A DNA stretch of 63,271 nt, filler included, from Reclinomonas americana ATCC 50394 (taxonomy: Eukaryota), in the NCBI GenBank assembly GCA_048213135.1. It is 8 parts of 5 records of this genome, joined end to end, with 100 filler letters (N's around TTAATTAATTAA, not from the genome) between each part and the next. Parts side by side here need not be neighbours in the genome. Positions count along the whole stretch, not along the records: positions 9,965 to 19,034 come from PS015608.1; 7 more parts are not named here. The stretch is one strand, 5' to 3'. The position numbers and the translations under genes were made by a program. The notes beneath the pieces were generated by a model. The model worked only from the letters and a program-made list of their open reading frames with translations. It did no database searches and was not told the DNA's origin. Below are positions 1,481 through 50,657 of this stretch, piece by piece (position 1 is the first letter of the stretch; the number at the start of each line of letters is the position of its first letter).

Positions 1481-1567
1481 CTATCTCATGGGGAATGCGA
1501 TGTCTGTCACACGCCGCGACTCGAGTTGCAGTGGATATCGCTGCTGCTGCTGTAGTTGCAGTTGTTG

Positions 1568-1607
<40 letters not shown>

Positions 1608-4600
1608 AATTGCTGCTGTTGCGCAAAGAACGGATGTTGACGGCGCAGCAGAACAAAGCCGCCGTTGGGTGGTGGTGAGAAGAGCACGGGCGGCAGCACC
1701 TGCGGCTCGCCATTGACAAAGGCTGTGCTCACGGTGGTGAGTAAGCTGGCGGCGCAAGAAAACATGATAAAAGCAAAACTTACGCAACTGCTCGGCACCA
1801 CATCCAGTGGCACCACGGAGCCGGGCGAGCTGGGGACGAGTTCCGCACTCAGCTTATTCCTGTTTGTCGCACGCTGACAGCGTGCACAGCAGCACCAGCC
1901 CAGCAGGATCGCGGTGGCGACGAGTGCGGTGCCGCCGGCGGCCACCAACAGCCACACCCACCAGGGCAGGCCGGAGGACGAGGTGCGACTTGCGCTGTCG
2001 GGCGCATCGCCCGTGGTGGACACGCGCAGATTGGCCGACGGAATCGACTGGCCGAACGAGTTCACAGCGCGCACATTGACAATGTATGGCGTGCCCGGCT
2101 GCAGGCCGCTCTGCGTGTACGTGTAGGCGGAGCGTGCGGCAGAGGAGACGTCGGAGGCGTTCTTGAAGCCCACAATCGGCCGGCCGCCATTCTCCGGAAA
2201 CACCTGGATCTGGTAGCTGGTGATGGCCGCCAGTCCGCCATACGCTGGCGTCGAAAAGTTAATGGTCAACGAGGTGTCGGTGACGGTGCTGCGCGTTGGC
2301 GCCGTCGGTGCTGCCGCCTGACCCGTCTGCGTCGTACTGCCCTGCGTCGGCGTGCCCACATTGCTGTTGGCGGTGCCTTGCGAGCCCTGCCCGAGACCGA
2401 CGGCGTTGCTGGCTACCAGGACGAGGCGGTAGCGCGACGTGGGCTTGATGGTGAACATTAGTTGCGTGCACAGGCCGTACACAGTCGGCACGGTGCCTGT
2501 GGTGCTCGTGCTGCCGACCACGGCCGTGTTGAGTCGCAGGCCGTCGGCCGCGCTCGGGTTGCCGGTCGACGGCAGGAATCGCGTGGTCCACTGCCAGTAG
2601 ACCACGTAAAACACCGTGGCGGTGCGTGAGCCGACACCCAGCGCAGACCACGACAAGCGGTACTCGTTGGCCGCGTAAAAGTCGATGGACGGCGGCGCCG
2701 CGGGTGGAACCAGGTCGGCGAGCAGCAGCGGCGACGCCTGCACATAGACGGACCGCGAAATGGCGCTCGTGCCAATCGAGTTGGTGGCCGTCAGATAGAA
2801 GCGGTAAAAGTTGCCGCTGAGCACCGTAACCGTCGTCGTCGAGTCGGAGACCTTCAATGTCGCTGCCGGCTGCGTCGGGGAGATGGCGGACTCGCCGACA
2901 AGCACCTGCTCGACAATGGGTGTCGAGCCGCCAGTGGCCGTCGACCACGAAAGAGTAATGGCGCTGCCGGTGTTGCTCACCACGAACAAGTTGGTGGGAT
3001 CGTTGGGCACTTGGCCCGTCAACACGTTGTTGTTGCTGAGGCCGTTGTTGGCGCTGCCGTCCACGAACGACGCCTGCACTGTCGACTGTCCCACATCGTT
3101 AATGCCGCGCACGTCGACAAAGTAGGTGTTGGCGTCGGCGAGGCCTCGAATCACCGCCTGCTGCACCGAGGTGATGTTCTGCGCCAGCGTGCTGGCAGCC
3201 AGAGGCCGCCATACCACCAGCCACTGCGTAACGAATCCCTGCCCGCCCGTCTCCAGCGGCTGGCCCCACGTGAGCCAGATGGAGGTCGATCGTTTCAGCA
3301 GCAAGTTGGACGACAGCGATGTGATGCCGCCGGGCCGCACGGCCGCCGACGCCGTGGTGATGGTGATCACGCTTGCCGACAGGGCAGTCTGGTAGCCGTT
3401 GAACGAGGCCACGCCGACGCGATACTTGGTGTTGGCGTTCAGGCCGTTGACGGAGAGCGTCGAGGTGGAGGAACCGAGCGAGCCTTTGAACTGCGTAACA
3501 AACGTGTCGGGCACAAACGTTGTCGAAGTGGAGGTGGCATTGGTCAGGCCTTGCACCAGCAGCTGCACGCCAACAAACTGCAGGTCGCCATCGGAGGTGG
3601 CCAGCGACGCCTGTGTGCCAATGGCCGTCGAGGGCGTGGAGAGTGTGAAAGTCGCGTAGCCGGCACCCACTGTGCCTGCGGCGCCTCCGGTGGAGATGGC
3701 CGGCAGCGGGTACGGCCGCACCACTGCATTGACAATCTGCAGCGTGGTACTTGATCCGGGACCACTCTGCGTCGACAGCACATCCTGGTCCGTGCGCACA
3801 TTCGTCGCCTGCACGGCGTACGTGTACGACTTGCCGGGGACCGTGGAAAACGTATAATTCGTCACCACCGAGGTCCACGTGAACAGGCGACTGCAGCCGT
3901 TGGTGGTCTGGCTGACGATGTAGCCCGAGATGGCAGAGCCGCCGACTCCGACCGGCGCCGCCCACGACACATTGGTCACCACGTCCTGGTAGAAATTGCC
4001 GGCAAACCCGACGCCACCACCATTCGGCACCCCGCCCTGCGAGTTCCGCACACCGCCCACCACCGTCGGCGCTGCCGGAGCAGTTGGTAGATCGTCTGCG
4101 CACATGGGATGGGGTAAGTATAAACACGGGCCAATGCTTTCAGTGCAGTGTCTCCTGCCCCGTTACACGTAACTCGTGGTGTGTGTGGTGAGGCTGAGGT
4201 TGGCGGACGCCACCGAGTTGCCGGAGCTGCTGGTGGCAAACACGCTGTACGCGTAAAACGTGCTGGGCGTGAGGTTGGTGTCCTGAAACGACACCGCGTC
4301 GCCACTCGTCGGTATTGGAACGGTGGTGTACAGCGTACGAAGGGCGGTACCGATCCCGCGGAACACAGAGAAGCCACTCACAGGATTCGAGCCGAAGCTC
4401 TGCGCAATCGTCCACGTGAAACTGATGGTGGTGGTCGTGTACTGCGTCAGCGTGATGTCTGGCGGCGTGGCCGGAATAACTCCAGCCATCACAGGCGTCG
4501 TGATCCCCACGGCGACACTGAACTGACACGTCACCGGACTGGAGGCAGTACCGGCCGGGTTGAAGGGCGACGAGGAAGGAAAGGCGATCGAAAACTGGTT

Positions 4601-7600
4601 GCTGGCGCACACTTGCAGCGAGACAAACGTGTTGACCGGCAGCCCGCTGACATCGACAAAGTACGAGGTCAAGTTGCCGTTCCACCCGACAGTGCCACTG
4701 CCGCCATTGACGGGCGGGATAAAGGTCGAATCCAACGCCACGGCGGCCGTGGTGGTGACCGTCGACACAAACGTGGCTCGGTTGATGGAGTAGACGACGC
4801 GGAAGGGCGACAAACTCGGATGTGCGGTCGTGACATTGCTCTGGGAGGCGTTGGAGGTGGCCAGGTTGTCGCCGCCCACATTCACCGGTGTGCTGAAAGT
4901 GAGTCGCAAGCCCGACGAGAACAGACGCGACATGGTCACGTTGGTCGGGGCGGCCGGCACATCGCCATTTTTCTCCGTGTTGACAAAGGCCGTCGCTGAG
5001 CTCGTGGACACCAGCGAATTGAAGGTCGCCTTGACGCGCACCGAGTATGCCGTGTCGGCCGTGAGGCTCACACTGCTGGTGGTGCTGCCACTTGTGGTCG
5101 TGAAGCCAGTGATTTGCTGATAAAAGCCGGTGGCCAGCGGAAACAGACCGTAGAATGAGGTGAAGACGGAGCCGTTGCTGACTGTGGAGCCAAGCACGGC
5201 CGGCTGCTCTGTACCACTGCCAATGGCCACCGTGAAGGCAAAGGAGAAGCTCGAGGTGCCGCCACCGGCAGTTCCGCCCCACACGTTGGGGAGGGCGAAG
5301 GCCACCACAAACGACGTGGAGGTGATCTGGTCCACCATGGGTAGTGTGGCGGCCGACGGCACCGTCTTGTTGGCGACGGCCATGGTGACCACCACGGTCG
5401 ACGAGTAGGCGAGGAAGCCGCCGAGAAATCCCGCATTGCCCGTGCCGTTGTTGTAGGCGACCTTGACGACGCACGAGCTGCCGGTGACGCCCATGATCTT
5501 GGCCAGCACACGATTGCGGGTGATGCTGGCGCTGGCGGTGGCCGTCGACACGCCCAGGTCGTTGAGATCGCTCACCGTTGGCACCGTCGCCGTGCCTCCA
5601 TCGCACGTGCTCAGCACAAACCACGACGGATTGACGGCGACACCCACATTGCCGGCGGGCGCCTCCCATTCCAGCACAAACGCCGAGTTGGTAATGTAGC
5701 GCACAGTGCTCGACAGCGTTGGCGCCGTCGGCGACACAATGGCGGTGGCCGGCGCGTCGCTGGTGGTGAACGAGCCGGTCCACGCACTCTGCGACCGATT
5801 CACTTGCGTGTTCGTGTACACCGACACGGTGTACGGGGTGAGAGAGTTGAGGGCGCCGAGAGTAATGGAGCGCCACGACCCCATAAAAGTCTCCGAGAGC
5901 GTCACTGTGGTGCCGTTGTTGGGTGTGCCGACGGCGAAGGCTCGCTGCGAGTTGCCTTGCGTCGTCAGCACCAGAAAGGCGGCAAATGTCGCGCTCGTCG
6001 CTCCCACATCTTGCGTGCTCAGGTTGCCCTGACCGACCACGCTTGTCGGCAGCTGCACCCAGACAACCGCCGACAAGTTGGTCACGTAATAAATCGCATT
6101 GGTCGACTGTGTGACCACATCCGGTCGATTGGTGGCGGTGTAGGCACTCAGTGACGACACAGTGGCGACCGTAGTGGGAGAGTTCTGTCCGTTCGGCAAC
6201 GTCACAGTGGCGCCCATGGTGTAAAAGCGACCGGGAGAGAGCGTCGACAGCGTGCACAGAAACGCATCGTTGTGCAGACCAGCGGGCTGGAACAGCACGT
6301 TGCAGGAGACGGAGGGTGTCACCGCCGTGCCACGTAGCGTCAGCGTAAATGTCGGCGAGGGCGTAACCGCGGCGGCTGTCAGCGATGCGCCCGACGACAA
6401 AATCGCAAAATTGTTGGCGCTGTACGTCGCTTGCGCCACTGTCAGCGTCAGCGCAATGGTCGCCGTGGTATCGGTCAAATCCACCAGCGCAACCGACGCT
6501 AGTGCGCCACCGGCAGCTGCCGGTGCCGCAATGACATCGGCACCGGTGTTCGGCGCCGCACCGTTCCGACTGCAACAGTAGATCACCAGCGGCGGCTGAC
6601 CGCTGAGACTGGTGATGCTGACGCCGACAGTGTTGAGTGTGCCGAGGGTAATGGCACCGATGGTCGGCAACCGCGTGCACGTGTTCGTCGCCCACGTCAG
6701 CGTGAGACCGACGGCACTGGTGTAGCCCTGGCCGGCCGACACGACCGTGACCGCCGTCCCGTTTACCACATTGCCGGCGCCATCGGCCAGCACCGTGGCC
6801 GCGGCACCTGCGCCGCCATTGCCGTTGATGCTGAAGGAGAGTAGCGTGTTCGCGCCGCAGCCGGCACCCGTGGCGCCCGCCGTGACACCGATCGCCGTCA
6901 CAGATGTGGTGGCGGCCAGTGAACCGAGTCGCACGGCCACGGTAAATGTCAGGGAAGTGGGAACGGCGGCCTGCATGAACGGGAAGAGAAAGAGAATTGA
7001 GGGCAATGCTCCATGAATCAGTGATGCGCAGCGGTGTGACGAAGCAACGAACCGATGATGTGGGGTTGAGATAAACTGCGTCGGCCGTGGGCACGGCAAA
7101 CTTCGAGGCAAGCGCCGACGAGCCCGACATCATGCTGATCGCTGCAAAAGACGGAAACCCGGCCGTGACAGAGGCGGCAACCTTGCCGTTGTTGACTGGT
7201 CGACCGGGGCAGAAGACGATAAAGTCGACACCGACTGTGAGGAGACCATTCGCTGATGTGCCGCCAATCACACTTTTGCCGTCGCGACCGTAAAACACCG
7301 GCAGAGTTGGCGTGTTGATGACGCTGTTGTCGGCGACCTGCGCCGCCAGGGCCGTGGCCGTGAGGCCGGCCGCATTGGAGACCAGCACACCGGGACGCGT
7401 GGAGACAAGGAAGGAGAGAATGCCGGCGACCACCAGCGACCCGCTCACATCGGTGGCAGCCATGTTCAGCGACCCCGTTCCGCCACTGCCATTGGCGGCA
7501 AACGAGTACGGCGTCACCGCAAATCCGTCGGTGCCGATGTCCGTCGGCGCACCGTTGATACTGTAGGAGCACGAAGTGGAGGTGACGGCCACGGAGGCCC

Positions 7601-8414
7601 AACACGACAGAACGGTAATGCTCGGCGCCCACTGTGGCGTGGAGCCAGTGGACAGAGTGAGGAGCACCTGTCCGCCGACCGTGGTCGCCGGCGAGCCAGC
7701 GGTCGCCAGCTGCCGCCACGATTGCACACCTTCACCCACGGCACTCACGGCCTGCACGCGCACCAAGTACGACGGCGCGGTGAGTCCCTTCAGTAGCGAT
7801 CTCCCTCCACTCACTCGCCCGACACTTGTGACCACCACCGTCACTGCAGAGGGCGCGGAAAACACCGTCGACACCGTCGTTCCAGTATTGTCGGTGGCAG
7901 GGGCGGCCTCCACACGAAACTCAGACAGCGCAGCACCCGTGCGTTGCGGTGCATCCCACGAGATGAGACCGCCATTGGTGGCCACAGTGACCACCGTCAG
8001 ATTCGCATTCTGAATCGCGTCGGGCGTCTGCTTCCCATTTGTCGTCGTCACACTCAGCGCGGCGGACCACAGGCCGAATCCCCATTCGCCGACGGCGCGC
8101 ACGCGAACCGAGTACGCCGTATTCGGCTGCAGCAGACCACTGGCAGAGTCGGCGCCCGTCCCGTTGACGACGCACGAGACGGTGGTGAATGGCAGGGGTG
8201 GCGAGGTGAACGGCACCGCGACCTGGCCCGCGTCGTCAAAAAAGGTCACCGCAGTCCACCCGCCGGCTTGCGTCTTGACTAGGGAGGGAAACGGAGAGGG
8301 AGTGAGAAGAGAAAGAAGGAGAAGGAGAGGGAGAAGGAGAGGGAGAAGGATGGAGAGAGGGGAGAGGGAGGCAAACAGATAGGCAGACACACTGACAGAC
8401 GAACAATCAGCGAC

Positions 8415-8459
<45 letters not shown>

Positions 8460-9320
8460 ACAGACGAAGAAATGTATTAGTAAGTTTACTCGACAACTCT
8501 GCNNNNNNNNNNNNNNNNNNNNNNNNNNNNNNNNNNNNNNNNNNNNNNNNNNNNNNNNNNNNNNNNNNNNNNNNNNNNNNNNNNNNNNNNNNNNNNNNNN
8601 NNNNNNNNNNNNNNNNNNNNNNNNNNNNNNNNNNNNNNNNNNNNNNNNNNNNNNNNNNNNNNNNNNNNNNNNNNNNNNNNNNNNNNNNNNNNNNNNNNNN
8701 NNNNNNNNNNNNNNNNNNNNNNNNNNNNNNNNNNNNNNNNNNNNNNNNNNNNNNNNNNNNNNNNNNNNNNNNNNNNNNNNNNNNNNNNNNNNNNNNNNNN
8801 NNNNNNNNNNNNNNNNNNNNNNNNNNNNNNNNNNNNNNNNNNNNNNNNNNNNNNNNNNNNNNNNNNNNNNNNNNNNNNNNNNNNNNNNNNNNNNNNNNNN
8901 NNNNNNNNNNNNNNNNNNNNNNNNNNNNNNNNNNNNNNNNNNNNNNNNNNNNNNNNNNNNNNNNNNNNNNNNNNNNNNNNNNNNNNNNNNNNNNNNNNNN
9001 NNNNNNNNNNNNNNNNNNNNNNNNNNNNNNNNNNNNNNNNNNNNNNNNNNNNNNNNNNNNNNNNNNNNNNNNNNNNNNNNNNNNNNNNNNNNNNNNNNNN
9101 NNNNNNNNNNNNNNNNNNNNNNNNNNNNNNNNNNNNNNNNNNNNNNNNNNNNNNNNNNNNNNNNNNNNNNNNNNNNNNNNNNNNNNNNNNNNNNNNNNNN
9201 NNNNNNNNNNNNNNNNNNNNNNNNNNNNNNNNNNNNNNNNNNNNNNNNNNNNNNNNNNNNNNNNNNNNNNNNNNNNNNNNNNNNNNNNNNNNNNNNNNNN
9301 NNNNNNNNNNNNNNNNNNNN

Positions 9321-9368
<48 letters not shown>

Positions 9369-9782
9369 AACAGCGAGAAATGATTGAAGTTTATCGCAAC
9401 TCTGCACTTGAAAGTATGGCGACTGCAGCTGCACGCGACGAATATCGGTGCCGGTCTGGCCGAGTTGCGTCGGCGGCGTAAACGACAGCACAAATGAGGT
9501 GGCGGCCATGTACCTCGCCGTCAGGCTAGTTGGCTGCCGAGGAGTGCCTGACACCGGCACCGACACCACCAGCGGTTGCGAGCGCACACCTTCCCCGTAC
9601 GCATTGACAGAGAACACCTGGACGAAACACATACGCTGGTGAGAGGCAACACCTAAGAGAGCGGGTGCATGTCACTTGATTGTGCGCACCGTGATCGAGT
9701 ACTGCACGCCCTGCTGTATGTTCTGATCGAATGAGCGTAGCACCAGGCCGTAGCACAGACTAAAGCCTGTCACTGAGGTGCA
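1481..9782 (-). CDS. Giant type-I membrane protein with multiple fibronectin type III domains (>2,200 aa, 5'-truncated); exons 9782-9690, 9617-9401, 8278-7053, 6970-4174, 4095-1789, 1722-1481
   Basis: Repeated FN3 signatures (LQPNTAYSVRVRAV, LTPSTFYAYSVFA, GLQPGTPYIVNVRAVNSFG), a single TM helix WWVWLLVAAGGTALVATAILLGW, a juxtamembrane CCCARC cluster and a polyQ tail. Splice phases are consistent. Confidence 0.85.
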
Positions 9783-10057: not shown

Positions 10058-10144
10058 GGTTAAGGGTCAAGGGCCCAGGAAGCCAACGGTCAAGAGCAAA
10101 GGGTCAAGGGTAGGGGCCCCCGGGTTAAGGGTCAAGGGTCAAGG
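10058..10144 (+). repeat. Degenerate T(T/C)AAGGG heptamer repeats, telomere-like
   Basis: gggttaagggtcaaggg, aagggtcaagggtagggg, gggttaagggtcaagggtcaagg. Confidence 0.5.
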
Positions 10145-11020
10145 AGCTGCATCCTGTCACATTCACCGTCGGGTCAAAACTAANNNNNNNNNNNNNNNNN
10201 NNNNNNNNNNNNNNNNNNNNNNNNNNNNNNNNNNNNNNNNNNNNNNNNNNNNNNNNNNNNNNNNNNNNNNNNNNNNNNNNNNNNNNNNNNNNNNNNNNNN
10301 NNNNNNNNNNNNNNNNNNNNNNNNNNNNNNNNNNNNNNNNNNNNNNNNNNNNNNNNNNNNNNNNNNNNNNNNNNNNNNNNNNNNNNNNNNNNNNNNNNNN
10401 NNNNNNNNNNNNNNNNNNNNNNNNNNNNNNNNNNNNNNNNNNNNNNNNNNNNNNNNNNNNNNNNNNNNNNNNNNNNNNNNNNNNNNNNNNNNNNNNNNNN
10501 NNNNNNNNNNNNNNNNNNNNNNNNNNNNNNNNNNNNNNNNNNNNNNNNNNNNNNNNNNNNNNNNNNNNNNNNNNNNNNNNNNNNNNNNNNNNNNNNNNNN
10601 NNNNNNNNNNNNNNNNNNNNNNNNNNNNNNNNNNNNNNNNNNNNNNNNNNNNNNNNNNNNNNNNNNNNNNNNNNNNNNNNNNNNNNNNNNNNNNNNNNNN
10701 NNNNNNNNNNNNNNNNNNNNNNNNNNNNNNNNNNNNNNNNNNNNNNNNNNNNNNNNNNNNNNNNNNNNNNNNNNNNNNNNNNNNNNNNNNNNNNNNNNNN
10801 NNNNNNNNNNNNNNNNNNNNNNNNNNNNNNNNNNNNNNNNNNNNNNNNNNNNNNNNNNNNNNNNNNNNNNNNNNNNNNNNNNNNNNNNNNNNNNNNNNNN
10901 NNNNNNNNNNNNNNNNNNNNNNNNNNNNNNNNNNNNNNNNNNNNNNNNNNNNNNNNNNNNNNNNNNNNNNNNNNNNNNNNNNNNNNNNNNNNNNNNNNNN
11001 NNNNNNNNNNNNNNNNNNNN

Positions 11021-11489
11021 NTCTAGATACAATGTGCTGCCCATCGGGAGTGACAGCGACGGAGAAGACGGGCTTGGAGTGGCCCGTCAGGCACTCCACC
11101 TCGTCACCAGTGGCCAACAGCCACACACGCACAGTCTTATCCTGACTGCCACTCACGACGAGCTCGCCCGAGGGAGCAAAGGCGACTGTCAGCACACCAC
11201 TCGAGTGACCGTGCAGCTGCAGCGCTTCCTCTCCACTCTCCATTGACCACACGCGCACGGTCTTGTCCAAGCTGCCGCTCACAATGTGGTCGCCAGTGGG
11301 AGAGAAGGCGACGGAGAGCACTGTGCCCTCGTGGCCCTCAAAATGCCGAGCATCCTTGTAATTGGCGAGTGTCCACACGCGCACAGTCTTGTCCTCGCCG
11401 CTGCTGACAGCGTGCAGGCCGTCGGGAGCAACGGCCACAGAAGAGACGCGACCGTATTCGTCGTACACGTGGCTCAAGAACACAGACAT
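11021..11489 (-). CDS. WD40-repeat protein, 5' part (3' end lost in gap); related to the 50.8-58.5 kb family
   Basis: Repeats of GH..V.SVA..PDG..VSGS.DKTVRVW; ATG at 11489. Confidence 0.85.
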
Positions 11490-11955
11490 GTTGAGTGAAA
11501 GAAACAAATGCTGCAATTTGCATAAATACCATCGACGTCGAGTGCATTCCCCGTCGACCATTGAGCCCGTCATCCGGATCCAACGAGCCTAACAGGGCTC
11601 GCAGCAGGTAGTCTCTCGCACAGCAGACAAGCTTGCAAGACGAATTCGAAAAAACGTCGCAGAACAATTGCACGTCGGCATGAATATTCTCTGTTCGCGC
11701 AATCACACACCAGCGACTTTCACTCCCTCCTCTCGCTCGCAATATACATGCGCAGGCAGTGGCATACTACACTCGCACGCACGCAACACCGCATGTCCCA
11801 CCTCGATATCTCGCAGTAATTTCGACGACTTCTCACGCACCAATCAATTTGCAATCCGCAACCGCAATGTCACAACAGCCCACTGGCAAGTCCCTCTTCT
11901 TCTCACCACTCTCCTCTCACTCTCTCACTCACTCTCCCTCACACACACACAGACG

Positions 11956-14639
11956 ATGGTGGCCTGCGCAGTGCACGCGGACGTCGCGCCCCCTCTGCAC
12001 CTGCTCCTCCTCTCGACGACGAGCAGGACGAGAACAAGCCGCCTGCCTCCTCCACAACAACCACAGACGGAAGAACCCGCGCCTTATCTCACCCGGCGCC
12101 CGATCGCCGACCATGGTTTCGTAACAACACAGCAGGCAGCAAACCGCGTCCGATAACTCCTCAGCACCAATCGCCCTCGCCACTCTTCTTCCCGCCACAC
12201 ATGTGCACCTCGAGTATACTCTCTGTGTCCTCGGCCTCCTCTGCGTCGACTGCATCGCTGCAAAGACCGCGATCGGCGGTGCAGTTGGTGTTAGNNNNNN
12301 NNNNNNNNNNNNNNNNNNNNNNNNNNNNNNNNNNNNNNNNNNNNNNNNNNNNNNNNNNNNNNNNNNNNNNNNCGAGAGGGCGCGTCTGAGTTTCGGTGCG
12401 TTAGTGGCCGAAGAATTGCACTCCCCATTCCTGCGCCTCTCTCCGTGACACGCCTGTCGTAGATGGTTTCGTGTTCCGCTGGGTGAGCCGGCCGATTCGC
12501 CACTGGCCGAGGAGATTGTGGCGGCGCGCGGATCGCGGGTGTACATTGCGCGAACGGGCGATGTGGGCATGCAGCTGGCGTTTGAGTACACGCCGGTGCG
12601 AGACGTGGATGGTCTGCGGGGCGCGCCGCAGCGTGCCTTGTCGGCCGTCGTCAAGAGTTACGTGTGTTGGTGAGTGGTTTCTATGTACCGCTTCTGCGAT
12701 CTCACACACGCAGAGTGTGCGTTGCAGGCGGTCAGTGCATCGGCGAGATCGTGCTGCACACGGCGCCGTTTGAGGGTCCGGCGGTGCCTGTTGGTCACAC
12801 GGTGCGCGGCATGACGTGCTTGCGATGCGTGCCGCTGGCGGCGAATGGTGGTGGCGGCGATCTGGATCGTGATCGAGTGGTTGTGGAGTGGAGCTGGGAG
12901 CGCTCCATGAACGGCAATGCGTACACGCCGTGTCGACCAGTGTGCACCAGTGCGGAGCGCGACTACACCACCAACGCCGACGACGTCAACTGCCATGTGC
13001 GTCTGGTCGGAAGGCGGTGGAGGGCGCACGATCGGCGTCTGCTGGAGGTTGTCGCGTCGTCGGCTGTCACGGTGGAGATGAGTTGCGTGTGACGGGGGAA
13101 GGGGGAAAGGGGAGAAGGGGAAGGGGGGAAAGGGAGAAGGGAAGAGACTGGCAAGCCTCTCAACGCACGTTCAGAAGGCGAGAGTGAAAGACAAGGAAGA
13201 GGGAGAGAGAGAGACAAACAGGGGAGGAGTTAAGTCAGTCAGTGACCTACGCGAGAAAGGGAAGCCTAAAGCGAGACGCCGTGGATTGCCAGTTGCACTT
13301 GCGACGAGTAACAGAGAGCAAGGAAGGGAGAGAGGGAGAAAGAGAATTGGCAGTCGTCTGACCAATGAGAGGGAAAGACAAGCCTGACTGTGAGATGTCG
13401 TTGATTACCAATTGCGCATGCGGAGAGTACCAGAGAGCAAGGAAGAGAGAGACCTGGCAATCATAGGACTGACGCGAGCACTCACGCTCACAAGGAAGAG
13501 TGAAAGAAGAGCCTGGAAGTGAGATGAAGTGTTGCGCTTTCTCGAAAGTTACTGAGAAGTGGCAAGGGAAGCAGCAAACATCGTATTCGCGTGTATGAAA
13601 GAGAGAGAGAGAGAGAAAGAGCAAGGAAGAGAGAGAGAAAGAGCAAGGAAGAGAGACAGAGAAGGAATGGACTGTCGTTTGACCACACGAGGGAAAGAAG
13701 AGCCTGGAAGTGAGATGCAGTGTTGCGCTTTCTGAAAACAGAGAAGGGGCAAGGAATGCAGGAAACATCGTTGCAGAAGAATGCACCCACGTGTGAGAGT
13801 GACACTGTTCTCACAACAACTGCCCGTAGGTGCCAAGCTTCGAATTGCGACCCTGCGCAGCCTGCAGCAACGCGAAACAGTGCATCCGGTGGTCGACACC
13901 GTCACCGGCACGGAGCTGATGCTGGTGTTTTCTCGCGAGAAATTCCGTGTCGCCAGCAAGTCGCGTTCCGGCGGCAATGGTGCCACGCTGATGAAGCGCT
14001 CGTGGAACAGTCACGAAATGGTCGGCAAGCGTGGATTGTGATAGCATTGTACTGTGCGGATCGCTGACTGTTGCTTGCCGCAGGATATGCGAGTGGCGGC
14101 CGATTCGGAAGACTCGTGTCAGCTGGAGATTCAGATGGTGAGTCGGCTTTCATTTTATCGTTTATGCTGGTCGCTTACATGCTCTCGTGTCCCAGTCGCC
14201 AGCCGACATTCTGCGAGTCACGATTGACGGCAAGGAGGCAGCGGATTCACTAATTGTGCTCTTCCGCTTGCTTGCTGCCATGGCGACGGTGCGTCTTTGT
14301 CTTTGTTGGCTGATGTGTTTTCTCTTTCCTCAAGAATTCGTCGCACAGAGCATTCTCGATGAGATCTGCGGCGATGCGGGGGCGTCGGAACGCTGGAAGA
14401 CACAGCCGCGCGATCCAGGCGCGCACTGTCCGTACCGTGCGCGATTGCAGCCGCGCTCTGTGCCCTCTGGCCGCCGCCGCCCACCATCTCGTATTGTTGC
14501 GTCGTGCGGTGCTGCTTCTCCGTGGCTGTTGATTTGCTCACCGCCATGCGCACAGTTGTACTCGGGCCGCCAGTCGCTTGCCTGGAATCACGCCTACAAA
14601 ATGGTCTCCAGCTTCTCCTTCCCTCCCATGGACGAGTAA
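11956..14639 (+). CDS. AIR9/SCAB-like protein with two A9-type Ig domains and a PH-like domain (5' exons uncertain)
   Basis: The exon near 12463-12656 reads WFRVP...RVYIARTGDVGMQLAFEYTPVRDVDGLRGAP, which matches the AIR9 A9-repeat motif. A second repeat (WSWERS...YTTNADDVNCHVRL) is followed by a beta-rich segment ending in the helix GKEAADSLIVLFRLLA. Confidence 0.6.
13140..13810 (+). repeat. Degenerate purine-rich intronic repeat
   Basis: aagaagagcctggaagtgagatg..gtgttgcgctttct recurs at about 13505 and 13695; agagcaaggaagagaga recurs several times. Confidence 0.7.
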
Positions 14640-14684
14640 ATATGTGTACAACAATCTAGGTTTCATGCATTATTGTCGCACGCG

Positions 14685-16760
14685 TTACTCTTCTGGCGTT
14701 GATGGTGGTGGTGGAGGTGGTGGTGGTGACGAAGGTGGTGAGGGCGATGCCGACGGTTGAGAGACACTCTTGCCGGGTGCCGTGGTTCTGCCGGCGCTCT
14801 TTGGTCTGCGAGTTGGCGCGGCCAGCGGCTGCAACAAGGGAAAGAGAGTGCAAGTGAGCAACAGCGGAGTCTCGTTATTCCCCTCTCTCAATCCACACTC
14901 CACCATATCAATGTCACGATCGGCGCCACTGTCCCCCACCGGCGCCTCCACAATCGGCTCCGTGAATTGCACCGGTGGTCCACCCTCCGGCACACCCTCG
15001 AATGGCGTTACTCGCAGCTGCGCCGCCGCGGTCTTGGTTGGTGTTTGGTACGACACGCCAAAGAGGAACCAGCGCTGCGCCAATTCGTCGCCACCGACAC
15101 CCATGTGTTTCGCCAGCTCTGCGTCCTCTTTCCAGCGCCCACTTTGCGCCGTCGCCACATCCTGCCCGACGTGATGAGGAGGAGCACTGTCACACCACAA
15201 CCGGCGAGGCGAGCGAAGCATTTACCTGCTCCGACATGCCCTGCTCTTCGTACCACACACGCAGGGGGTCCTCGCGACGCGACACAATCACCGTCACGGT
15301 CGTCTGTGGTGGCTTGGCCATGACGGAGCGCGCCAGTGGGTGGTGCAGGCCCAACAGACCCGCCTCTGGCAAGTGCTCGTGCTCGCCAACAATCTGCGGT
15401 GACGGATCAGCTGATGGACAGGGAGGCGGTGGCAGTGGAGAGAGAGAGAGACCTGGAAAATGTGTGCAGTGCGACTCGCCAGGTGGACCATGTTGACCAC
15501 GGAGCCGATCTTGACGTGATCGTCGGCTTGCATGCCACCGTAGAGCACGTCTGGGGGGAGGCAGGGAATGAGGAGGAGGAGAAGAAGGAGGAGAAGAAGA
15601 AGAAGAAGAAGAAGAAGAAGGAGGAGGAGGAGGAGGAGGAGGAGGAGGAGGAGGAGGAGGAGGAGGAGGAGGAGGAGGAGGAGGAGGAGGAGGAGGAGGA
15701 GGAGGAGGAGAGGAGGAGGAGAGAGAGAGAGAGAGAGAGTAGAGAGAGAGAGAGAGAGNNNNNNNNNNNNNNNNNNNNNNNNNNNNNNNNNNNNNNNNNN
15801 NNNNNNNNNNNNNNNNNNNNNNNNNNNNNNNNNNNNNNNNNNNNNNNNNNNNNNNNNNNNNNNNNNNNNNNNNNNNNNNNNNNNNNNNNNNNNNNNNNNN
15901 NNNNNNNNNNNNNNNNNNNNNNNNNNNNNNNNNNNNNNNNNNNNNNNNNNNNNNNNNNNNNNNNNNNNNNNNNNNNNNNNNNNNNNNNNNNNNNNNNNNN
16001 NNNNNNNNNNNNNNNNNNNNNNNNNNNNNNNNNNNNNNNNNNNNNNNNNNNNNNNNNNNNNNNNNNNNNNNNNNNNNNNNNNNNNNNNNNNNNNNNNNNN
16101 NNNNNNNNNNNNNNNGGGGCGTGTAAAGAAAATAGCAGAGACCGAGGAATGCAAGAGGGAGAAGAGAGAAGACAGAAGAAGGCAGTTGAAGTGACTTTGA
16201 TGGGGCGTGTAAAGTGACAGCAGAGACAGAGGAATGCAAGAGGGAGAAGGGAGAAGACAGAAGAATGCAACTGAAGTGACTTTGATGAATTGTATGACAG
16301 AGAGAGAGAGAGGGGAAAGCAAAAAGAAAGAGGGGAGAAGAGAAGAGGAAGGAGAAGACAGAAGAATGCAATTGAAGTGACTTTGATCGCGAATGTGTGG
16401 ATTACACAGAGTGGGCGATGTGAAGAGAGATAGAGAGAGGCAGGAAGGCGCAGAAGGAGAGGAGAGAGAAGAGAGAATGCAATTGAAGTGACTTTGATCA
16501 CAAGCTCACTCCCTCTCTCTCCTTTTGTCTCCCTTCCTCTCTCTTCCCTCTCTCCTCTCTGCTCTCTTCTCCCTCTCTCCCTCACACACACCCAACACCA
16601 GCGCAAAGTACGCCGAAGTCATCGGAAGTCGCGCATCGTCCTCTGAGCTCACAGGCAACACATGATGCCGTTGCTGCAACGTCGACGACGTTGAGAACAA
16701 CGCACACGCGCGAGAAGCGCACGACAGCGAGAGCAGCAGTGGCCTTCGCGCGAGGAGCAT
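14685..16760 (-). CDS. Putative mitochondrion-targeted GreA/GreB/Rnk C-terminal-domain protein; exons 16760-16592, 15550-15453, 15393-15226, 15161-14685 (last may contain an in-frame intron)
   Basis: Presequence-like N-terminus MLLARRPLLLSLSCASRACALFSTSSTL. The spliced DHVKIGSVVNMVHLASRTAHIFQ|IVGEHEHLPEAGLLGLHHPLARSVMAK aligns without gaps to the GreA C-domain pattern V..G..V...L.S......IVG..E.....L.....P.AR....K. Confidence 0.7.
16115..16500 (+). repeat. Intronic degenerate tandem repeat, unit about 85-110 bp
   Basis: The core gaatgcaa.tgaagtgactttgat occurs about 4 times. Confidence 0.8.
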
Positions 16761-16844: not shown

Positions 16845-17649
16845 ATGGCGTACCCGCCCGAGCTGCGACTCAAGTTACGCGCACGTGTGTGTGTGAGAGA
16901 GTGAGAGAGAGGGAGGGAGAGAGGACGTGCAGCTGTTGTTTGGTGTTGTGTGTCAGTCAGTGTTTGAAGGCGCACGCTCAGAACGCAGATGTACCAATGA
17001 GCTCGCTTGCATGGTGAAAGTGTCGCCCGGTTGAAGACACACGCTTAGAACGCAGATGGATGAATGGGCTTCTCTTCTGCATCATGAAAGTGTCGCTCAG
17101 TTGAAGACGCACACGTAGATGGATGAATGGGCTTCTCTTCTATGTCACTTGCATGGTGAAAGTGTCGCCCAGTTGAAGGCGCACACTCAGAACGCAGATG
17201 AACCAGTGAGCGTTCTCTTTTGCATCATGAAAGTGTCGCTCAGTTGAAGACGCACGCTTAGAACGCAGATGAACCAATGAGCGTTTCTCTCTGTCTATCT
17301 TGCATCGTGAGAGTGTCGCCCAGTTGAAGACAGACGCTCAGAACATAAATGCATGAACGAGCGTTTCTCTCTGTCTATCTTGCATCGTGAGTGTGTCGCT
17401 CAGTTGAGACGGGCGCTCAGAGCGCAGATGAAACCAGTGAGCGTTTCTCTCTCCCTCCCTCTCCTCTCTCTCCCCCCCTCCTCTCTCTCCTTCTCTCGCT
17501 TTGTTGTCTTGCCACTGACGTTTTTTTCGCCTTCAGGCATGTGCTTGGTCGGTCGACGGGTTTCTTGCATGCAGTCGGCGACTCGTCAGTGGCGCTGCGT
17601 GCGGGTTCACAGCTGGCGTTTCTGAGAGCGGATGAGCAGTCGGAAGGAG
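16845..17649 (+). CDS. CFAP43: Probable N-terminal exons of CFAP43 (16845-16873, 17537-17649)
   Basis: Spliced MAYPPELRLK|HVLGRSTGFLHAVGDSSVALRAGSQLAFL resembles the first propeller strands of CFAP43. Same strand as the C-terminal CFAP43 exons beyond the gap. Confidence 0.55.
16963..17447 (+). repeat. Intronic minisatellite, about 7 copies of 60-80 bp
   Basis: Unit approximates ttgaagacgcacgcttagaacgcagatg...tgcatc.tgaaagtgtcgc.cag, repeated head to tail. Confidence 0.9.
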
Positions 17650-19204
17650 GTATGTGCGCACAGAGAGACAGGAACTCACATGATAGCCTGCAAACCCCTC
17701 TGTCACTCACTCATCCGTTCAGAAAGAGAGAGAAGAGCTGCCTCAGTCCACACTTACACCCCCTCGTCCCTTCATCCATCTCGCTCCTGTTTCAGAGAGA
17801 AGCCGAAGCAGTCTATAGGCACACCCCGCGTTCCTCCATCTCTATCGCTCTCCTCTCACTCCCATACACACTTAGGAGCTGNNNNNNNNNNNNNNNNNNN
17901 NNNNNNNNNNNNNNNNNNNNNNNNNNNNNNNNNNNNNNNNNNNNNNNNNNNNNNNNNNNNNNNNNNNNNNNNNNNNNNNNNNNNNNNNNNNNNNNNNNNN
18001 NNNNNNNNNNNNNNNNNNNNNNNNNNNNNNNNNNNNNNNNNNNNNNNNNNNNNNNNNNNNNNNNNNNNNNNNNNNNNNNNNNNNNNNNNNNNNNNNNNNN
18101 NNNNNNNNNNNNNNNNNNNNNNNNNNNNNNNNNNNNNNNNNNNNNNNNNNNNNNNNNNNNNNNNNNNNNNNNNNNNNNNNNNNNNNNNNNNNNNNNNNNN
18201 NNNNNNNNNNNNNNNNNNNNNNNNNNNNNNNNNNNNNNNNNNNNNNNNNNNNNNNNNNNNNNNNNNNNNNNNNNNNNNNNNNNNNNNNNNNNNNNNNNNN
18301 NNNNNNNNNNNNNNNNNNNNNNNNNNNNNNNNNNNNNNNNNNNNNNNNNNNNNNNNNNNNNNNNNNNNNNNNNNNNNNNNNNNNNNNNNNNNNNNNNNNN
18401 NNNNNNNNNNNNNNNNNNNNNNNNNNNNNNNNNNNNNNNNNNNNNNNNNNNNNNNNNNNNNNNNNNNNNNNNNNNNNNNNNNNNNNNNNNNNNNNNNNNN
18501 NNNNNNNNNNNNNNNNNNNNNNNNNNNNNNNNNNNNNNNNNNNNNNNNNNNNNNNNNNNNNNNNNNNNNNNNNNNNNNNNNNNNNNNNNNNNNNNNNNNN
18601 NNNNNNNNNNNNNNNNNNNNNNNNNNNNNNNNNNNNNNNNNNNNNNNNNNNNNNNNNNNNNNNNNNNNNNNNNNNNNNNNNNNNNNNNNNNNNNNNNNNN
18701 NNNNNNNNNNNNNNNNNNNNNNNNNNNNNNNNNNNNNNNNNNNNNNNNNNNNNNNNNNNNNNNNNNNNNNNNNNNNNNNNNNNNNNNNNNNNNNNNNNNN
18801 NNNNNNNNNNNNNNNNNNNNNNNNNNNNNNNNNNNNNNNNNNNNNNNNNNNNGTTACAGGTGTGGATTGATGGTGCGATGCTCTGCGCGTGTGTGTGAGA
18901 GAGAAGGGGAGAGAGAGAGAGAGTGGGAGAAGAAGAAGAAGAAGAAGAAGAAGAAGAAGAAGAAGAAGAAGAGAGCCTGCTCTTCGCAGTGTAAGATGAA
19001 GGAAGGGTCCAGAGGGTGCAAGTGTGGACTGAGANNNNNNNNNNNNNNNNNNNNNNNNNNNNNNNNNNNNNNNNNNNNTTAATTAATTAANNNNNNNNNN
19101 NNNNNNNNNNNNNNNNNNNNNNNNNNNNNNNNNNATTGATGGCAGCAGACTAGCTTCGTTGTGCAACTGTGCTGACACGCCCTTGTGTCCTTCTCCTCCC
19201 ACAG

Positions 19205-20489
19205 GTGACACTCGATGAGCTGAAGCAGCAGGCGTCGCAGACGTCAACAGAGGTGGCGCAGTTCCGCCGTGAGGTGGTGGCGGCGCAGAGCGAGTTTGAG
19301 GAGATGAAGGCGGAGGAGCGCGAAATGGCGGCCGAGAAGAACTTCAAGCTCAAGTTTGCCGACGCACCCGATCACGTCGATCATCTGTGGAAGTTGTTCC
19401 GAAGGAGACCAAAGGTGCGAGGCGGGGAGAGAAGTGCGAGTATGACATGCGTTCCAAATGTCTCACCATCTTGTGCCTTGTTCGTCGAGCAGCCACTGGT
19501 CGCCCAACAGCGACCACCATCGTCGTCGGGGGTGGCGGCCACCGCCGCAGATCCGTTTGGCGGCGTGGAGAGTTCACCGTCGATGATTGCCACCGAGGCA
19601 CCGGCGGAGCCACCGGATGTGTTGGATGTCATTCGCGATCGACCAGAAGGCATCAGCGATGTGGTGTGGGAGCGATTCTGGGAGTGGCGAAAGTACAAGA
19701 TGGCCAAGGAGCGCGACATCAAGTTTGCGGCGGAGCGTCTTGCCGAGATGGAGGCTCACTTGCAGAAGCAGGAGGCCGACGAGGCCACTTACAACCGCGA
19801 GGTATGGAATTTATTAGTGGACGCAACAGAGTGCGTGACTCTCACCACTCACCTTATCTGTGTGAATGCAGATGATGTCGGCCTCGGCTCTGGTGAAGGA
19901 GTTGCATCAGGAGCGCATCGACTCGGCCTACAACACCGACTGCATCCTCACACTGAGGCAAGGCCAGGTGGAGGTGGAGCAGGCGGCTGTCGTCACCGAC
20001 TACGGCAACTCGGTGCTCATCAACAACAAGATTGTGCGCGGCCTCAACGACGAAATCCTGCGTGCTGCCAATGAGAACATTGACTGCCTGAAGCAAATTC
20101 GTGACTTCCGCAAGCAAGTGCGCCAGCTGGAATGGTGCGTGACAGCCGCCGCCCCCCATGAATTGGCAAGCAACTGTACTCATTGTGAGTGTGATGTACA
20201 GGAACTTGGACAAGCTGGACCTGGATGCGGAGCACTTTGCGGTGCTGAAGAACGAGTTCTACTTGCTGCGCATGACCAAGAACATGCAGGAGTTCATCAA
20301 GGGTGGCGAGAATGCGTCGCAGGACGCCGTCAAGACGGAGCTGCTCGGCAAGAAGGAGTCGATGCGCAAGATGTTCGAGGCCAAGATCAAGGAGAAGGAC
20401 AACCAGATCCGCAAGCTGCGGCGTCAGATTCGACAGCGTGTCGAGGAGAACCACATGCTGGATCAGCGTATCCGCGAGCACACTGTCAT
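19205..20489 (+). CDS. CFAP43: Cilia- and flagella-associated protein 43, C-terminal coiled-coil region (partial, 3 introns)
   Basis: Motifs VDHLWKLFRRRPK, RPEGISDVVWERF, LRQGQVEVE...DYGNSVLINNKIVRGLNDEI and RQLEW match the CFAP43 C-terminus. Confidence 0.88.
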
Positions 20490-49582: not shown

Positions 49583-49908
49583 NNNNNNNNNNNNNNNNNN
49601 NNNNNNNNNNNNNNNNNNNNNNNNNNTTAATTAATTAANNNNNNNNNNNNNNNNNNNNNNNNNNNNNNNNNNNNNNNNNNNNCCGAACGTTTACTACGCA
49701 CTGCACTCTCTCTCTCTCTCCTCCTCCCTCCTCTCCTCCTCTCTCTCTCTCCCTCCTCTCTCTCTCCCTCCCTCTCTCCCTCTCTTTCACACACACACCT
49801 ACCTCCACAATCCCTGTGCAAGAGAATCAGAAGCGGAAACCTCGCAGAAGAGACAAGTCGGAGACTGTCGGAGATTGATTGCTCTCTCACCGTTGGCGCT
49901 GCTTGCAG

Positions 49909-50657
49909 GTCGGAGTTCTCGACATTGATGTGTGCGGCCCGTCCATCCCAAAGATCCTCGGCCTCGAGGGCCACTCGGTGCATCAGTGCTCCGATGGGTG
50001 CGCGTTGCTTCTTCTGTTGTCTTGCCTTTCCTCTGCGTCTGATGTCGCGACAGGTGGGTGCCTGTGTATGCCGACGCCAGCAAACGCTTGCGCGTGATGA
50101 GCATTGGCTTTCTGCTGGCGAGTCCCGACGATGCGGTGGTGTGGCGTGGACCGCGCAAGACCGCCATGATTCGTCAGTTTATTGAGGATGTGCACTGGGG
50201 CGACGATGTCGACTATCTGCTGGTGGACACGCCGCCGGGCACCTCTGACGAGCACATCACTATTGTGGAGATGCTGCAGGAGGTGCCGAACGCCGGTGCG
50301 GTGATTGTGACCACGCCGCAGGGTGTGTCGCTCAGCGACGTGCGCAAGGAGATCACGTTCTGCCGGCGCGTGGAGTTGCCGGTGCTTGGCCTGGTGGAGA
50401 ACATGAGTGGATTTGTGTGCCCGCACTGCGCCGAGTGCACCGACATTTTCATGAGTGGCGGCGGTCGGGAGCTGGCCACCGCCTGCAGCATCCCGCTGCT
50501 CGGACAGGTGCCCATTGACCCGCAACTGTCGGCTGCCGAGGACGCCGGCGAGGATTTTATCAGCAACTTTCCCGATACGCCAACAGGCAGGGCACTGGCG
50601 GCCGTGGTGAGTGCCCTCGAGCGGGAGGTGGAGGAGAGAAGGATAACGCCAAAGTAA
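49909..50657 (+). CDS. NUBP2: Cytosolic Fe-S cluster assembly factor NUBP2/CFD1, 5'-truncated; exons 49909-49997, 50054-50657
   Basis: [66 protein letters not shown]. The HQC and CPHC.EC motifs favour Cfd1 over Nbp35. Confidence 0.88.

What the first reader, a model, noticed from the sequence alone, without database searches (positions are those of the whole stretch)
14685..16760. Nucleus-encoded, mitochondrion-targeted bacterial Gre-factor-like protein lacking the visible catalytic coiled coil
Seen: after removing a 59-nt intron, DHVKIGSVVNMVHLASRTAHIFQIVGEHEHLPEAGLLGLHHPLARSVMAKPPQTTVTV aligns gap-free with the GreA C-terminal domain (as recalled, [58 protein letters not shown]). A final-strand-like QRWFLFGVSY follows an insertion of about 45 aa. 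Exon 1 looks like a presequence and joins exon 2 in frame with no coiled coil between. Established: Gre factors act on multisubunit bacterial RNA polymerase; jakobid mitochondria retain that enzyme, and I recall a mitochondrial GreA/B homologue reported in Andalucia; Rnk keeps the C-domain with a short coil. Inference: an Rnk-like or truncated regulator of a bacterial-type mitochondrial RNA polymerase, and a clue that the host is a jakobid.
Basis: partly seen in the sequence, partly recalled or inferred. Interest (0 to 1): 0.85.

Follow-up and report, generated by a model that had tools for sequence, protein, structure and literature searches.

The report
Spliced nuclear gene for GreA-type factor
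This is a real, intron-containing gene of an unidentified flagellate protist that encodes a relative of the bacterial transcription-rescue factor GreA with a mitochondrial-looking leader, much like one already reported in the jakobid Andalucia, and its apparently missing catalytic arm falls exactly on a hole in the assembly.

Summary
On the minus strand, removing a canonical 59-nt GT..AG intron (15452-15394) joins two exons. Their product scores 27.2 bits (per-sequence E 1.6e-10) on a GreA-family HMM I built; 0 of 2000 shuffles reach 10 bits. hhalign gives 94% probability over E. coli GreA residues 75-158.

The domain is GreA-type, not Rnk-type: 30.5 bits on GreA, 19.9 on GreB and 3.8 on Rnk-like C-domain profiles.

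Exon 1 has a presequence-like start (4 R/K, 0 D/E in 38 aa), then 'PMT'. That N-terminal signature occurs in 34 of 34 GreA rows, 0 of 11 GreB rows and 0 of 13 Rnk-like rows.

No coiled-coil coding is visible in the assembled window. However, a 357-N gap flanked by repeats lies between exon 1 and exon 2, exactly where that exon would be. A direct in-frame join is also possible, so the truncation is unresolved.

By eye that protein is colinear with this one.

The host was not identified. This is a new member of a known kind, of moderate interest.

The parts
16586..16760 (-). Exon 1. ATG at 16760-16758. About 38 aa are presequence-like, then 'LPMT' at residues 46-49 and a short hydrophobic stretch. 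The 3' end is uncertain: phase-1 donors leave the last exon base at 16592 or 16586.
   Evidence: GC3 is 0.71. PMT is expected 0.0054 times per 56 aa in this window's six-frame background.
15551..16585 (-). Interval between exon 1 and exon 2: repeats plus the assembly gap. It holds 85-nt tandem repeats at 16116-16311, a 357-N run at 15759-16115, and (GAG)n/(GA)n at 15570-15758. It is either one ~1 kb intron or two introns around a hidden coiled-coil exon.
   Evidence: No GreA N-domain-like piece was found in the assembled flanks.
15453..15550 (-). Exon 2. The acceptor is CCCCCCAG|AC and the exon starts in phase 1. It encodes x-VLYGGMQADDHVKIGSVVNMVHLASRTAHIFQ, which is the linker and first strands of the GreA C-domain.
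   Evidence: It scores 4.3 bits alone and contributes to the 27.2 bits when joined.
15394..15452 (-). Intron, 59 nt, GTCTCTCT...CACCGCAG.
15226..15393 (-). Exon 3, 56 codons. It encodes IVGEHEH...HPLARSVMAK...TVTVIVSRREDPLRVWYEEQGMSEQ, the core of the GreA C-domain including the conserved P-x-A-R...K motif.
   Evidence: Pfam PF01272: E 0.049, 14.1 bits, profile positions 27-65 of 77. NCBIfam GreA equivalogs: E 0.043-0.1. Also.
15162..15225 (-). Intron, 64 nt, GTAAATGC...TCGGGCAG.
14904..15161 (-). Exon 4, 86 codons. A C-terminal extension with no family match.
   Evidence: No Pfam or NCBIfam hit. -3.5 bits on the GreA HMM.
14829..14903 (-). Putative intron, 75 nt, GTGGAGTG...TGTTGCAG. It is in frame and has no stop, so retention cannot be excluded.
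14685..14828 (-). Exon 5: a proline/serine-rich tail and the stop codon (14687-14685).
   Evidence: GC3 is only 0.47, so this is the least certain exon.

Best explanation
This is a functional, spliced nuclear gene descended from bacterial GreA. It is the counterpart, in an unidentified flagellate protist, of the 'divergent mitochondrion-targeted GreA/GreB homolog' described in Andalucia godoyi.

The product starts with an arginine-rich, acid-free leader that most likely imports it into mitochondria. This step is inferred from composition. The leader is followed by the GreA-specific N-terminal 'PMT' start and, after the unassembled stretch, a GreA-type C-terminal domain and an extension of about 130 aa of unknown role.

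In bacteria, as I recall the literature, this C-domain docks the factor at the rim of the secondary channel of the multisubunit RNA polymerase. The inferred mechanism is therefore the same docking on a bacterial-type organellar polymerase.

Whether the protein also carries the coiled coil that reaches the active site and stimulates transcript cleavage cannot be read from this assembly. I lean about 55:45 to the view that the coiled-coil exon lies in the 357-N gap, so that the protein is an ordinary cleavage factor and not a truncated one.
For: Shown:
- Canonical introns of 59 and 64 nt restore one frame.
- Spliced exons 2+3 score 27.2 bits, E 1.6e-10 per sequence, on a 52-row GreA-family HMM. 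The single exons score 8.9 and 4.3 bits.
- 0 of 2000 shuffles reach 10 bits; the maximum is 4.8.
- hhalign gives 94% probability and E 1e-7 to 2.5e-8 over E. coli GreA 75-158.
- 11 of 27 C-domain columns that are at least 80% conserved are identical, and 17 of 27 are identical or in the same residue group.
- C-domain profile scores are GreA 30.5, GreB 19.9 and Rnk-like 3.8 bits.
- PMT lies at exon-1 residues 47-49. P[MLIV]T occurs at the N-terminus of 34 of 34 GreA rows, 0 of 11 GreB rows and 0 of 13 Rnk-like rows.
- The first 38 aa hold 4 R/K, 0 D/E, 9 S/T and 13 A/L.
- GC3 is 0.69-0.80 in exons 1-4.
- Independent weak pointers for exon 3 alone: Pfam PF01272 at E 0.049, three NCBIfam GreA equivalogs, and ESM Atlas top three clusters all GreA_GreB at 0.86.

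Precedent: PMC7050145 passages and row 518 of its supplementary file 1. By my own eye-count, that Andalucia protein is colinear with exons 1-4. The shared elements are M-T-(T/S)..A-Y at the N-domain start, DV(V/L)Y at the linker, (Y/F)QIV, and W.....V.Y..PT. About 19 of 68 positions are identical with one 1-residue gap. This count was not computed by a tool.
Against: - No curated threshold was passed. Pfam on exon 3 alone gives 14.1 bits against a cut-off of 26.9, and the spliced protein could not be handed to the curated libraries or to the fold tools.
- No fold was predicted.
- No relative of exon 3 was found among 1.84 billion representatives; the single hit at E 3.3e-4 is repeat-like.
- The word-indexed search also found nothing.
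- Mitochondrial targeting rests on composition only, and the hydrophobic moment is low (maximum 0.36).
- The host and its mitochondrial polymerase are unknown.
- No coiled coil is present in the assembled sequence.
- Both edges of the gap lie in repeats, so the gap may hold only more repeats.
- An intron of about 0.8 kb that holds an N gap, with no residues missing, exists in the BBS7 gene of this window. A 1-kb intron here would therefore not be an outlier.
Confidence: 0.55

Rival explanations
1. A truly coil-less GreA. Exon 1 splices directly to exon 2, so the product keeps the leader, a stub of about 10 residues of the N-domain, and the C-domain. It would dock on the polymerase's secondary-channel rim without reaching the active site. 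It would act as a competitor or occluder, or as an adaptor through its C-terminal extension, and not as a cleavage factor.
For: - Phase-1 donors at 16592 (GTGTGT) and 16586 (GTGAGG) allow an in-frame join to the phase-1 acceptor at 15551. The first gives Asp, which matches the D of the DV.Y linker.
- No N-domain-like coding occurs in any of 1257 six-frame pieces.
- Both gap edges lie inside repeats.
- Long introns of 0.6-0.85 kb occur in BBS7 in the same window.
Against: - The run GGTGTGTGTGAGG offers donors in all three phases, so phase compatibility carries no information.
- The Andalucia counterpart has about 60 residues between the two shared landmarks (counted by eye).
- A well-conserved GreA-type C-domain and the retained PMT start suggest a working full-length factor.
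- 357 N is enough room for an exon of about 180 nt.
Confidence: 0.3
2. The host is not a jakobid and has no bacterial-type mitochondrial polymerase. The GreA-derived domain has been co-opted for another organellar role, for example as a nucleic-acid or ribosome-associated protein.
For: - The host was not identified. NUBP2 best hits are only 53-67% identical and come from animals, chytrids and Amoebozoa. BBS7 gave 3 hits at 43-54%.
- The genome is intron- and repeat-rich, unlike the compact A. godoyi genome.
- A weak PDB hit of exon 3 to the kinetoplastid mitoribosomal protein mL73 (E 1.5).
Against: - The mL73 hit is at noise level. Exons 2 and 4 give no colinear hit.
- A 2025 paper states that the GreA/GreB factor is absent from the available euglenozoan mitoproteomes (passage).
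- The only published eukaryotic precedent I found is in a jakobid.
- The polymerase-docking motif region P-x-A-R...K is kept.
Confidence: 0.12
3. The leader is a plastid transit peptide, and the factor serves a plastid-encoded bacterial-type polymerase in an alga.
For: S/T- and A-rich, acid-free leaders are common to both organelles. The host is unknown.
Against: - No plastid-related gene was seen among the 143 window ORFs scanned.
- The window encodes NUBP2/Cfd1, which I recall is missing from the green lineage.
- I recall that cyanobacteria lack Gre factors, so there is no ancestral plastid GreA.
Confidence: 0.04
4. Chance similarity, or a decaying pseudogene.
For: Exon 5 has a low GC3 of 0.47. 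No expression data could be obtained.
Against: - The profile score is far beyond the shuffles.
- Three canonical introns keep one frame with no stops.
- GC3 is high in exons 1-4.
- The subfamily-specific PMT start lies in the right place.
Confidence: 0.03

Closest known systems
Andalucia godoyi nucleus-encoded, mitochondrion-targeted GreA/GreB homologue (gene model _04888; Gray et al. 2020, PMC7050145)
   Same: - Nuclear gene with an N-terminal leader and a divergent GreA-like C-domain followed by a long non-homologous C-terminal extension.
- Shared landmarks by eye: M-T-(T/S)..A-Y after the leader, DV(V/L)Y linker, (Y/F)QIV, and W.....V.Y..PT.
   Different: - The Andalucia protein shows about 60 residues (the coiled coil) between the first two landmarks. 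Here that interval is unassembled or absent.
- As I read the unlabelled column of its supplement row, the Andalucia gene has no intron. This gene has at least 3-4.
- This C-domain keeps the bacterial P-x-A-R motif, which the Andalucia protein lacks by eye.
- About 49 extra residues lie here before the W...PT landmark.
- The comparison is manual, because the sequence was not stored and could not be given to a tool.
Bacterial GreA (E. coli b3181 and 33 other Pseudomonadota rows used here)
   Same: - C-domain homology: 30.5 bits on the GreA C-domain profile, and 15 of 58 identical to E. coli GreA without gaps.
- The PMT start of the N-domain.
   Different: - A eukaryotic, spliced gene with a leader peptide.
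- The coiled coil with its acidic tip is not visible.
- A C-terminal extension of about 130 aa.
- Several conserved residues are changed, for example S-x-x-S before the Pro becomes G-x-x-H, and the P-G-G turn is lost.
Rnk (regulator of nucleoside diphosphate kinase) and Rnk-like short Gre-family proteins
   Same: They share the Gre C-domain fold family. If the coil is truly missing, the overall size class would be similar.
   Different: - The C-domain scores only 3.8 bits on a 13-row Rnk-like profile.
- Rnk-like rows lack the PMT start (0 of 13).
- It works at most 'like' a short Gre-family protein and is not a member.
GreB
   Same: Same domain family. The C-domain scores 19.9 bits on an 11-row GreB profile.
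   Different: It scores lower than on GreA. GreB rows have no P[MLIV]T start (0 of 11).

Membership tests
GreA/GreB C-terminal domain superfamily (Pfam PF01272) | Significant profile match across the domain | tested here: met
   Spliced exons 2+3 score 27.2 bits, E 1.6e-10, on HMM positions 81-146 of 157 of a local 52-row HMM. hhalign gives 94% over E. coli GreA 75-158. 0 of 2000 shuffles reach 10 bits.
GreA/GreB C-terminal domain superfamily (Pfam PF01272) | Score above Pfam's curated gathering cut-off (26.9 bits) | not testable with these tools
   Only contiguous DNA can be handed to the library. Exon 3 alone gives 14.1 bits, E 0.049, and exon 2 alone gives no hit.
GreA/GreB C-terminal domain superfamily (Pfam PF01272) | The C-domain fold, recalled as a beta-sheet packed around a helix | not testable with these tools
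No model was made.
GreA proper (transcript cleavage factor) | C-domain closer to GreA than to GreB or Rnk | tested here: met
   30.5 bits (GreA, 34 rows) against 19.9 (GreB, 11 rows) and 3.8 (Rnk-like, 13 rows). The group labels are mine, set by score and by the E. coli references. One extra ORF, L128_-0_0, was dropped.
GreA proper (transcript cleavage factor) | N-terminal P-M-T start of the N-domain | tested here: met
   LPMT at residues 46-49 of exon 1. P[MLIV]T occurs in 34 of 34 GreA rows, 0 of 11 GreB rows and 0 of 13 Rnk-like rows. Chance expectation is 0.0054 per 56 aa. This was a post hoc test.
GreA proper (transcript cleavage factor) | N-terminal antiparallel coiled coil with acidic tip residues (D41/E44 in E. 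coli, recalled) | tested here: inconclusive
   None of 1257 six-frame pieces resembles HMM positions 1-80; the best other piece scores 3.7 bits. However, 357 N lie between exon 1 and exon 2.
Rnk family | Rnk-type C-domain and N-terminus | tested here: not met
   3.8 bits on the Rnk-like profile. The PMT start is absent from 13 of 13 Rnk-like rows.
Jakobid mitochondrial GreA/GreB homologue (Andalucia type) | Colinear similarity to the Andalucia protein beyond what bacterial GreA shares | tested here: inconclusive
   Manual comparison with the row printed. The landmarks are shared and about 19 of 68 positions are identical. No tool could be given that sequence.
Jakobid mitochondrial GreA/GreB homologue (Andalucia type) | Mitochondrial targeting | tested here: inconclusive
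   The leader's composition fits: 4 R/K, 0 D/E, 9 S/T and 13 A/L in 38 aa. Its amphipathicity is low, with a maximum hydrophobic moment of 0.36. No targeting predictor or localisation data were available.
Jakobid mitochondrial GreA/GreB homologue (Andalucia type) | Host with mtDNA-encoded rpoA-D and no phage-type polymerase | not testable with these tools
   No genome is held for the window. No sequencing run was listed.

The most novel reading that the evidence does not exclude
The assembled structure is the true one. This would be a natural GreA that has lost its whole coiled-coil exon but kept the PMT stub, a conserved polymerase-docking C-domain and a new tail of about 130 aa. It would be imported into the organelle as a secondary-channel rim binder (an anti-Gre or occluder, or an adaptor), possibly in a lineage outside the known jakobids.
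Probability: 0.3. Interest if true: 0.6.

Novelty: new member of a known kind. Interest (0 to 1): 0.36.

Why it matters
Jakobids are the only eukaryotes known to transcribe mtDNA with a bacterial-type multisubunit polymerase. Nucleus-encoded bacterial accessory factors show how much of the ancestral transcription apparatus survived.

In the papers I searched, one such GreA/GreB homologue is reported, in Andalucia. A second, independent and more bacteria-like example, which keeps the P-x-A-R motif and the PMT start, would:
- help define the eukaryotic family;
- give a profile for finding it elsewhere;
- serve as a nuclear marker hinting at a bacterial-type organellar polymerase in an unannotated protist genome.

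If the coil is truly gone, it would be a natural experiment on what a Gre C-domain does alone.

Tried and rejected
- Whole-genome search of the host: no genome is held.
- Sequencing runs for 14640-15560: none was listed, and no RNA holder was listed. There is therefore no cDNA check of the splicing or of a hidden exon.
- Word-indexed homologue search with exon 3, longer proteins: 16 candidates, none scored.
- phmmer of exon 3 against 1.84 billion representatives: 1 hit, E 3.3e-4, 529 aa, 7 stretches, matching only query residues 16-37. I judged it repeat-like and did not follow it.
- PDB sequence search. Exon 3 gave 8 hits at E 0.32-1.5: PikAIV thioesterase, cytochrome b5 and kinetoplastid mL73, with no Gre factor. 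Exon 4 gave 1 hit at E 1.8, phage Hoc. Exon 2 gave 0 hits.
- The mL73 lead was rejected. It is at noise level with no colinear support. A review passage places mL73 in the kinetoplastid central protuberance. The Andalucia mitoribosome paper has 0 occurrences of GreA.
- ESM Atlas on exon 4: Rep_fac-A_C fragment clusters at 0.91, but recognition was 1718, below the 2300 guide value. I treated this as noise.
- Last-strand test: deleting the ~49-aa stretch so that RWFLFGVSY follows the hairpin did not raise the HMM score (27.1 against 27.2 bits).
- Host identification. The NUBP2 exon gave best hits of 53-67% identity among 120 listed, with no close relative. The BBS7 exon gave only 3 hits. The host stays unidentified.
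- Rfam at gathering thresholds: 0 matches in the window.
It was redone through handles.
- Structure prediction and complex prediction were not run.
Full report
**What is there.** The finding lies on the minus strand of a GC-rich (about 0.6), repeat-rich, gap-ridden eukaryotic scaffold with 26 N runs totalling 6849 N. Reading the sequence, the stop-to-stop frames and the exon translations gives this model:
- Exon 1 runs from the ATG at 16760 to about 16592/16586.
- A ~1 kb interval follows, made of 85-nt tandem repeats (16116-16311), a 357-N gap (15759-16115) and (GAG)n/(GA)n (15570-15758).
- Exon 2 is 15550-15453, behind a strong CCCCCCAG acceptor.
- A 59-nt GT..AG intron follows.
- Exon 3 is 15393-15226.
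- A 64-nt GT..AG intron follows.
- Exon 4 is 15161-14904.
- A putative 75-nt in-frame intron follows.
- Exon 5 runs to the stop at 14687-14685.

GC3 is 0.69-0.80 in exons 1-4 and 0.47 in exon 5.

**Is the GreA likeness real?**

Evidence from exon 3 alone is only suggestive:
- Pfam PF01272 gives E 0.049 and 14.1 bits against a cut-off of 26.9, over profile positions 27-65 of 77.
- Three NCBIfam GreA equivalogs give E 0.043-0.1.
- The three nearest ESM Atlas clusters are all GreA_GreB at 0.86, a level the tool calls a lead only.

The spliced product cannot be handed to the curated libraries, so I built a local test set:
- E. coli greA, greB and rnk.
- 80 named gammaproteobacterial greA loci.
- 30 loci from an even draw of 81 Pseudomonadota genomes, all 81 of which carry the family, plus 5 further loci.

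From these I built a 52-row HMM: 38 ORFs plus every sixth of the 80.

The exons were spliced inside the script from window coordinates. Results:
- Exons 2+3 score 27.2 bits, per-sequence E 1.6e-10, against 8.9 and 4.3 bits for the single exons.
- 0 of 2000 shuffles reach 10 bits; the maximum is 4.8, with 1607 shuffles given any score.
- Among 1257 six-frame pieces of the whole window, the best is the exon-3 frame at 7.6 bits, and nothing else exceeds 3.7.
- hhalign gives 94% probability and E 1e-7 to 2.5e-8 over E. coli GreA residues 75-158.
- Of 27 C-domain columns at least 80% conserved in the 52 rows, 11 are identical and 17 are identical or in the same residue group. These include the G, the IVG..E stretch and the P-x-A-R...K motif.

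The homology is real, and the intron is needed to see it.

**Which Gre-family member?** I fetched 20 further loci with weaker family matches and sorted all rows into three groups: 34 GreA, 11 GreB and 13 Rnk-like. The sorting used score and the E. coli references. One extra ORF was dropped.

C-domain-only profiles give the window 30.5 bits (GreA), 19.9 (GreB) and 3.8 (Rnk-like).

Exon 1 also reads LPMT at residues 46-49, right after the leader. P[MLIV]T at the N-terminus occurs in 34 of 34 GreA rows, 0 of 11 GreB rows and 0 of 13 Rnk-like rows. PMT is expected only 0.0054 times in 56 residues of this window's six-frame background, although this was a post hoc test.

The gene is therefore GreA-derived, and 'Rnk-like' is not supported. 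Exon 1 seems to encode a leader plus the very start of the GreA N-domain.

**The coiled coil.** No coding piece like the N-domain exists in the assembled window. Phase-1 donors end the exon at 16592 (giving Asp) and at 16586 (giving Tyr). However, the run GGTGTGTGTGAGG offers donors in every phase, so this carries no weight.

The unassembled 357 N lie exactly between the N-domain start (exon 1) and the linker (exon 2).

Points for a hidden exon:
- The Andalucia counterpart has about 60 residues between these same landmarks (by eye).
- The docking domain is conserved.
- The gap has room for an exon of about 180 nt.

Points against:
- Both gap edges lie inside repeats.
- Long introns occur nearby. 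Mapping a BBS7 homologue shows introns from about 64 nt up to about 0.6-0.85 kb, and one of them holds a 94-N gap with no residues missing.

I lean 55:45 to a hidden exon, but this is open. 'Truncated' should not be claimed from this assembly.

**The last strand.** hhalign instead closes the domain inside exon 3, with PLRVWYE on E. coli GreA 152-158. Removing the intervening stretch does not raise the HMM score (27.1 against 27.2 bits). By eye, the Andalucia protein's W.....V.Y..PT matches the exon-4 candidate. Both readings stand.

**Precedent and host.** Gray et al. [quoted passage not shown] They also found no phage-type polymerase in it or in four other jakobid genomes. I read passages of the paper and row 518 of its supplementary file 1.

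A 2025 paper on diplonemid mitoproteomes (PMC12699882, one passage) lists this factor as absent from the available euglenozoan mitoproteomes. My searches of the held library for GreA with jakobid or Andalucia terms found no other report. Subscription papers are not covered.

The window is not from A. godoyi:
- The protein differs.
- A. godoyi is compact and intron-poor.

The window encodes flagellar genes (CFAP43, BBS7), ATG2, NUBP2/Cfd1, WD40 arrays and a giant fn3 protein. The best NUBP2 relatives are 53-67% identical and are animals, chytrids and Amoebozoa. BBS7 gave three hits. The host is an unannotated flagellate. 'Jakobid' remains a reasonable but untested guess.

**Mechanism.**

Shown:
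- A spliced gene.
- A GreA-type C-domain.
- A GreA N-terminal start.
- A leader whose composition suits import (4 R/K, 0 D/E, 9 S/T and 13 A/L in 38 aa), although it is weakly amphipathic.

Inferred from what I recall of bacterial Gre factors:
- The C-domain docks at the secondary-channel rim of a multisubunit polymerase.
- With a coiled coil, the factor would stimulate cleavage of backtracked RNA.
- Without one, it could only occupy the site.

The role of the C-terminal extension of about 130 aa (exons 4-5) is unknown. It has no family match, and the Atlas lead is at noise level.

**Verdict.** The gene is a new member of a known, published kind. Interest is moderate. It would rise if the gap proves empty of an exon or if the host proves not to be a jakobid.

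Noticed in passing
window 16116-16311 and 16964-17452: Tandem repeats with 85-nt and 71-80-nt units flank exon 1 on both sides. (GAG)n/(GA)n microsatellites abut the gap at 15570-15758.
   Followed up: no
window 10125-11588 (-), 55330-56922 (-): WD40-repeat open frames run straight into N gaps (10184-11021, 55446-56122). Gaps in this assembly therefore do cut coding sequence.
   Followed up: partly
window 34610-40501 (-): BBS7 gene in at least 8 pieces, with introns from about 64 nt to about 0.85 kb. Residues about 200-237 of the best homologue were not found; they fall next to a 900-N gap at 38738-39637.
   Followed up: partly
window 49906-50654 (+): NUBP2/Cfd1-type cytosolic Fe-S assembly ATPase. 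Pfam's best model name was NUBPL. The best relatives are only 53-67% identical. I recall that Cfd1 is absent from the green lineage, which would argue against a green-algal host.
   Followed up: partly
window 1481-9671 (-): Very large fibronectin-type-III repeat protein with a C-terminal hydrophobic segment and a poly-Q tail, interrupted by an 818-N gap.
   Followed up: no
window 19154-20489 (+), 33081-34480 (+), 50773-57526: CFAP43 coiled-coil exons, the ATG2 C-terminal region and an array of near-identical WD40 propeller genes. Adjacent Pfam-matched frames imply short introns of at most 68-77 nt in ATG2 and CFAP43.
   Followed up: no
window 15161-15050 (-), exon 4: By eye, the stretch AK..G.GGDEL....RWFLFGVSY in exon 4 loosely echoes the second half of the C-domain in exon 3 (AK......TVTV......RVWYE). 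It could be a degenerate partial duplication. HMMER gives it no score.
   Followed up: partly
window 14142-14639 (+): An open frame on the other strand ends 45 nt from the stop of the GreA-like gene, in convergent arrangement. It has no Pfam match at E 1e-5.
   Followed up: no
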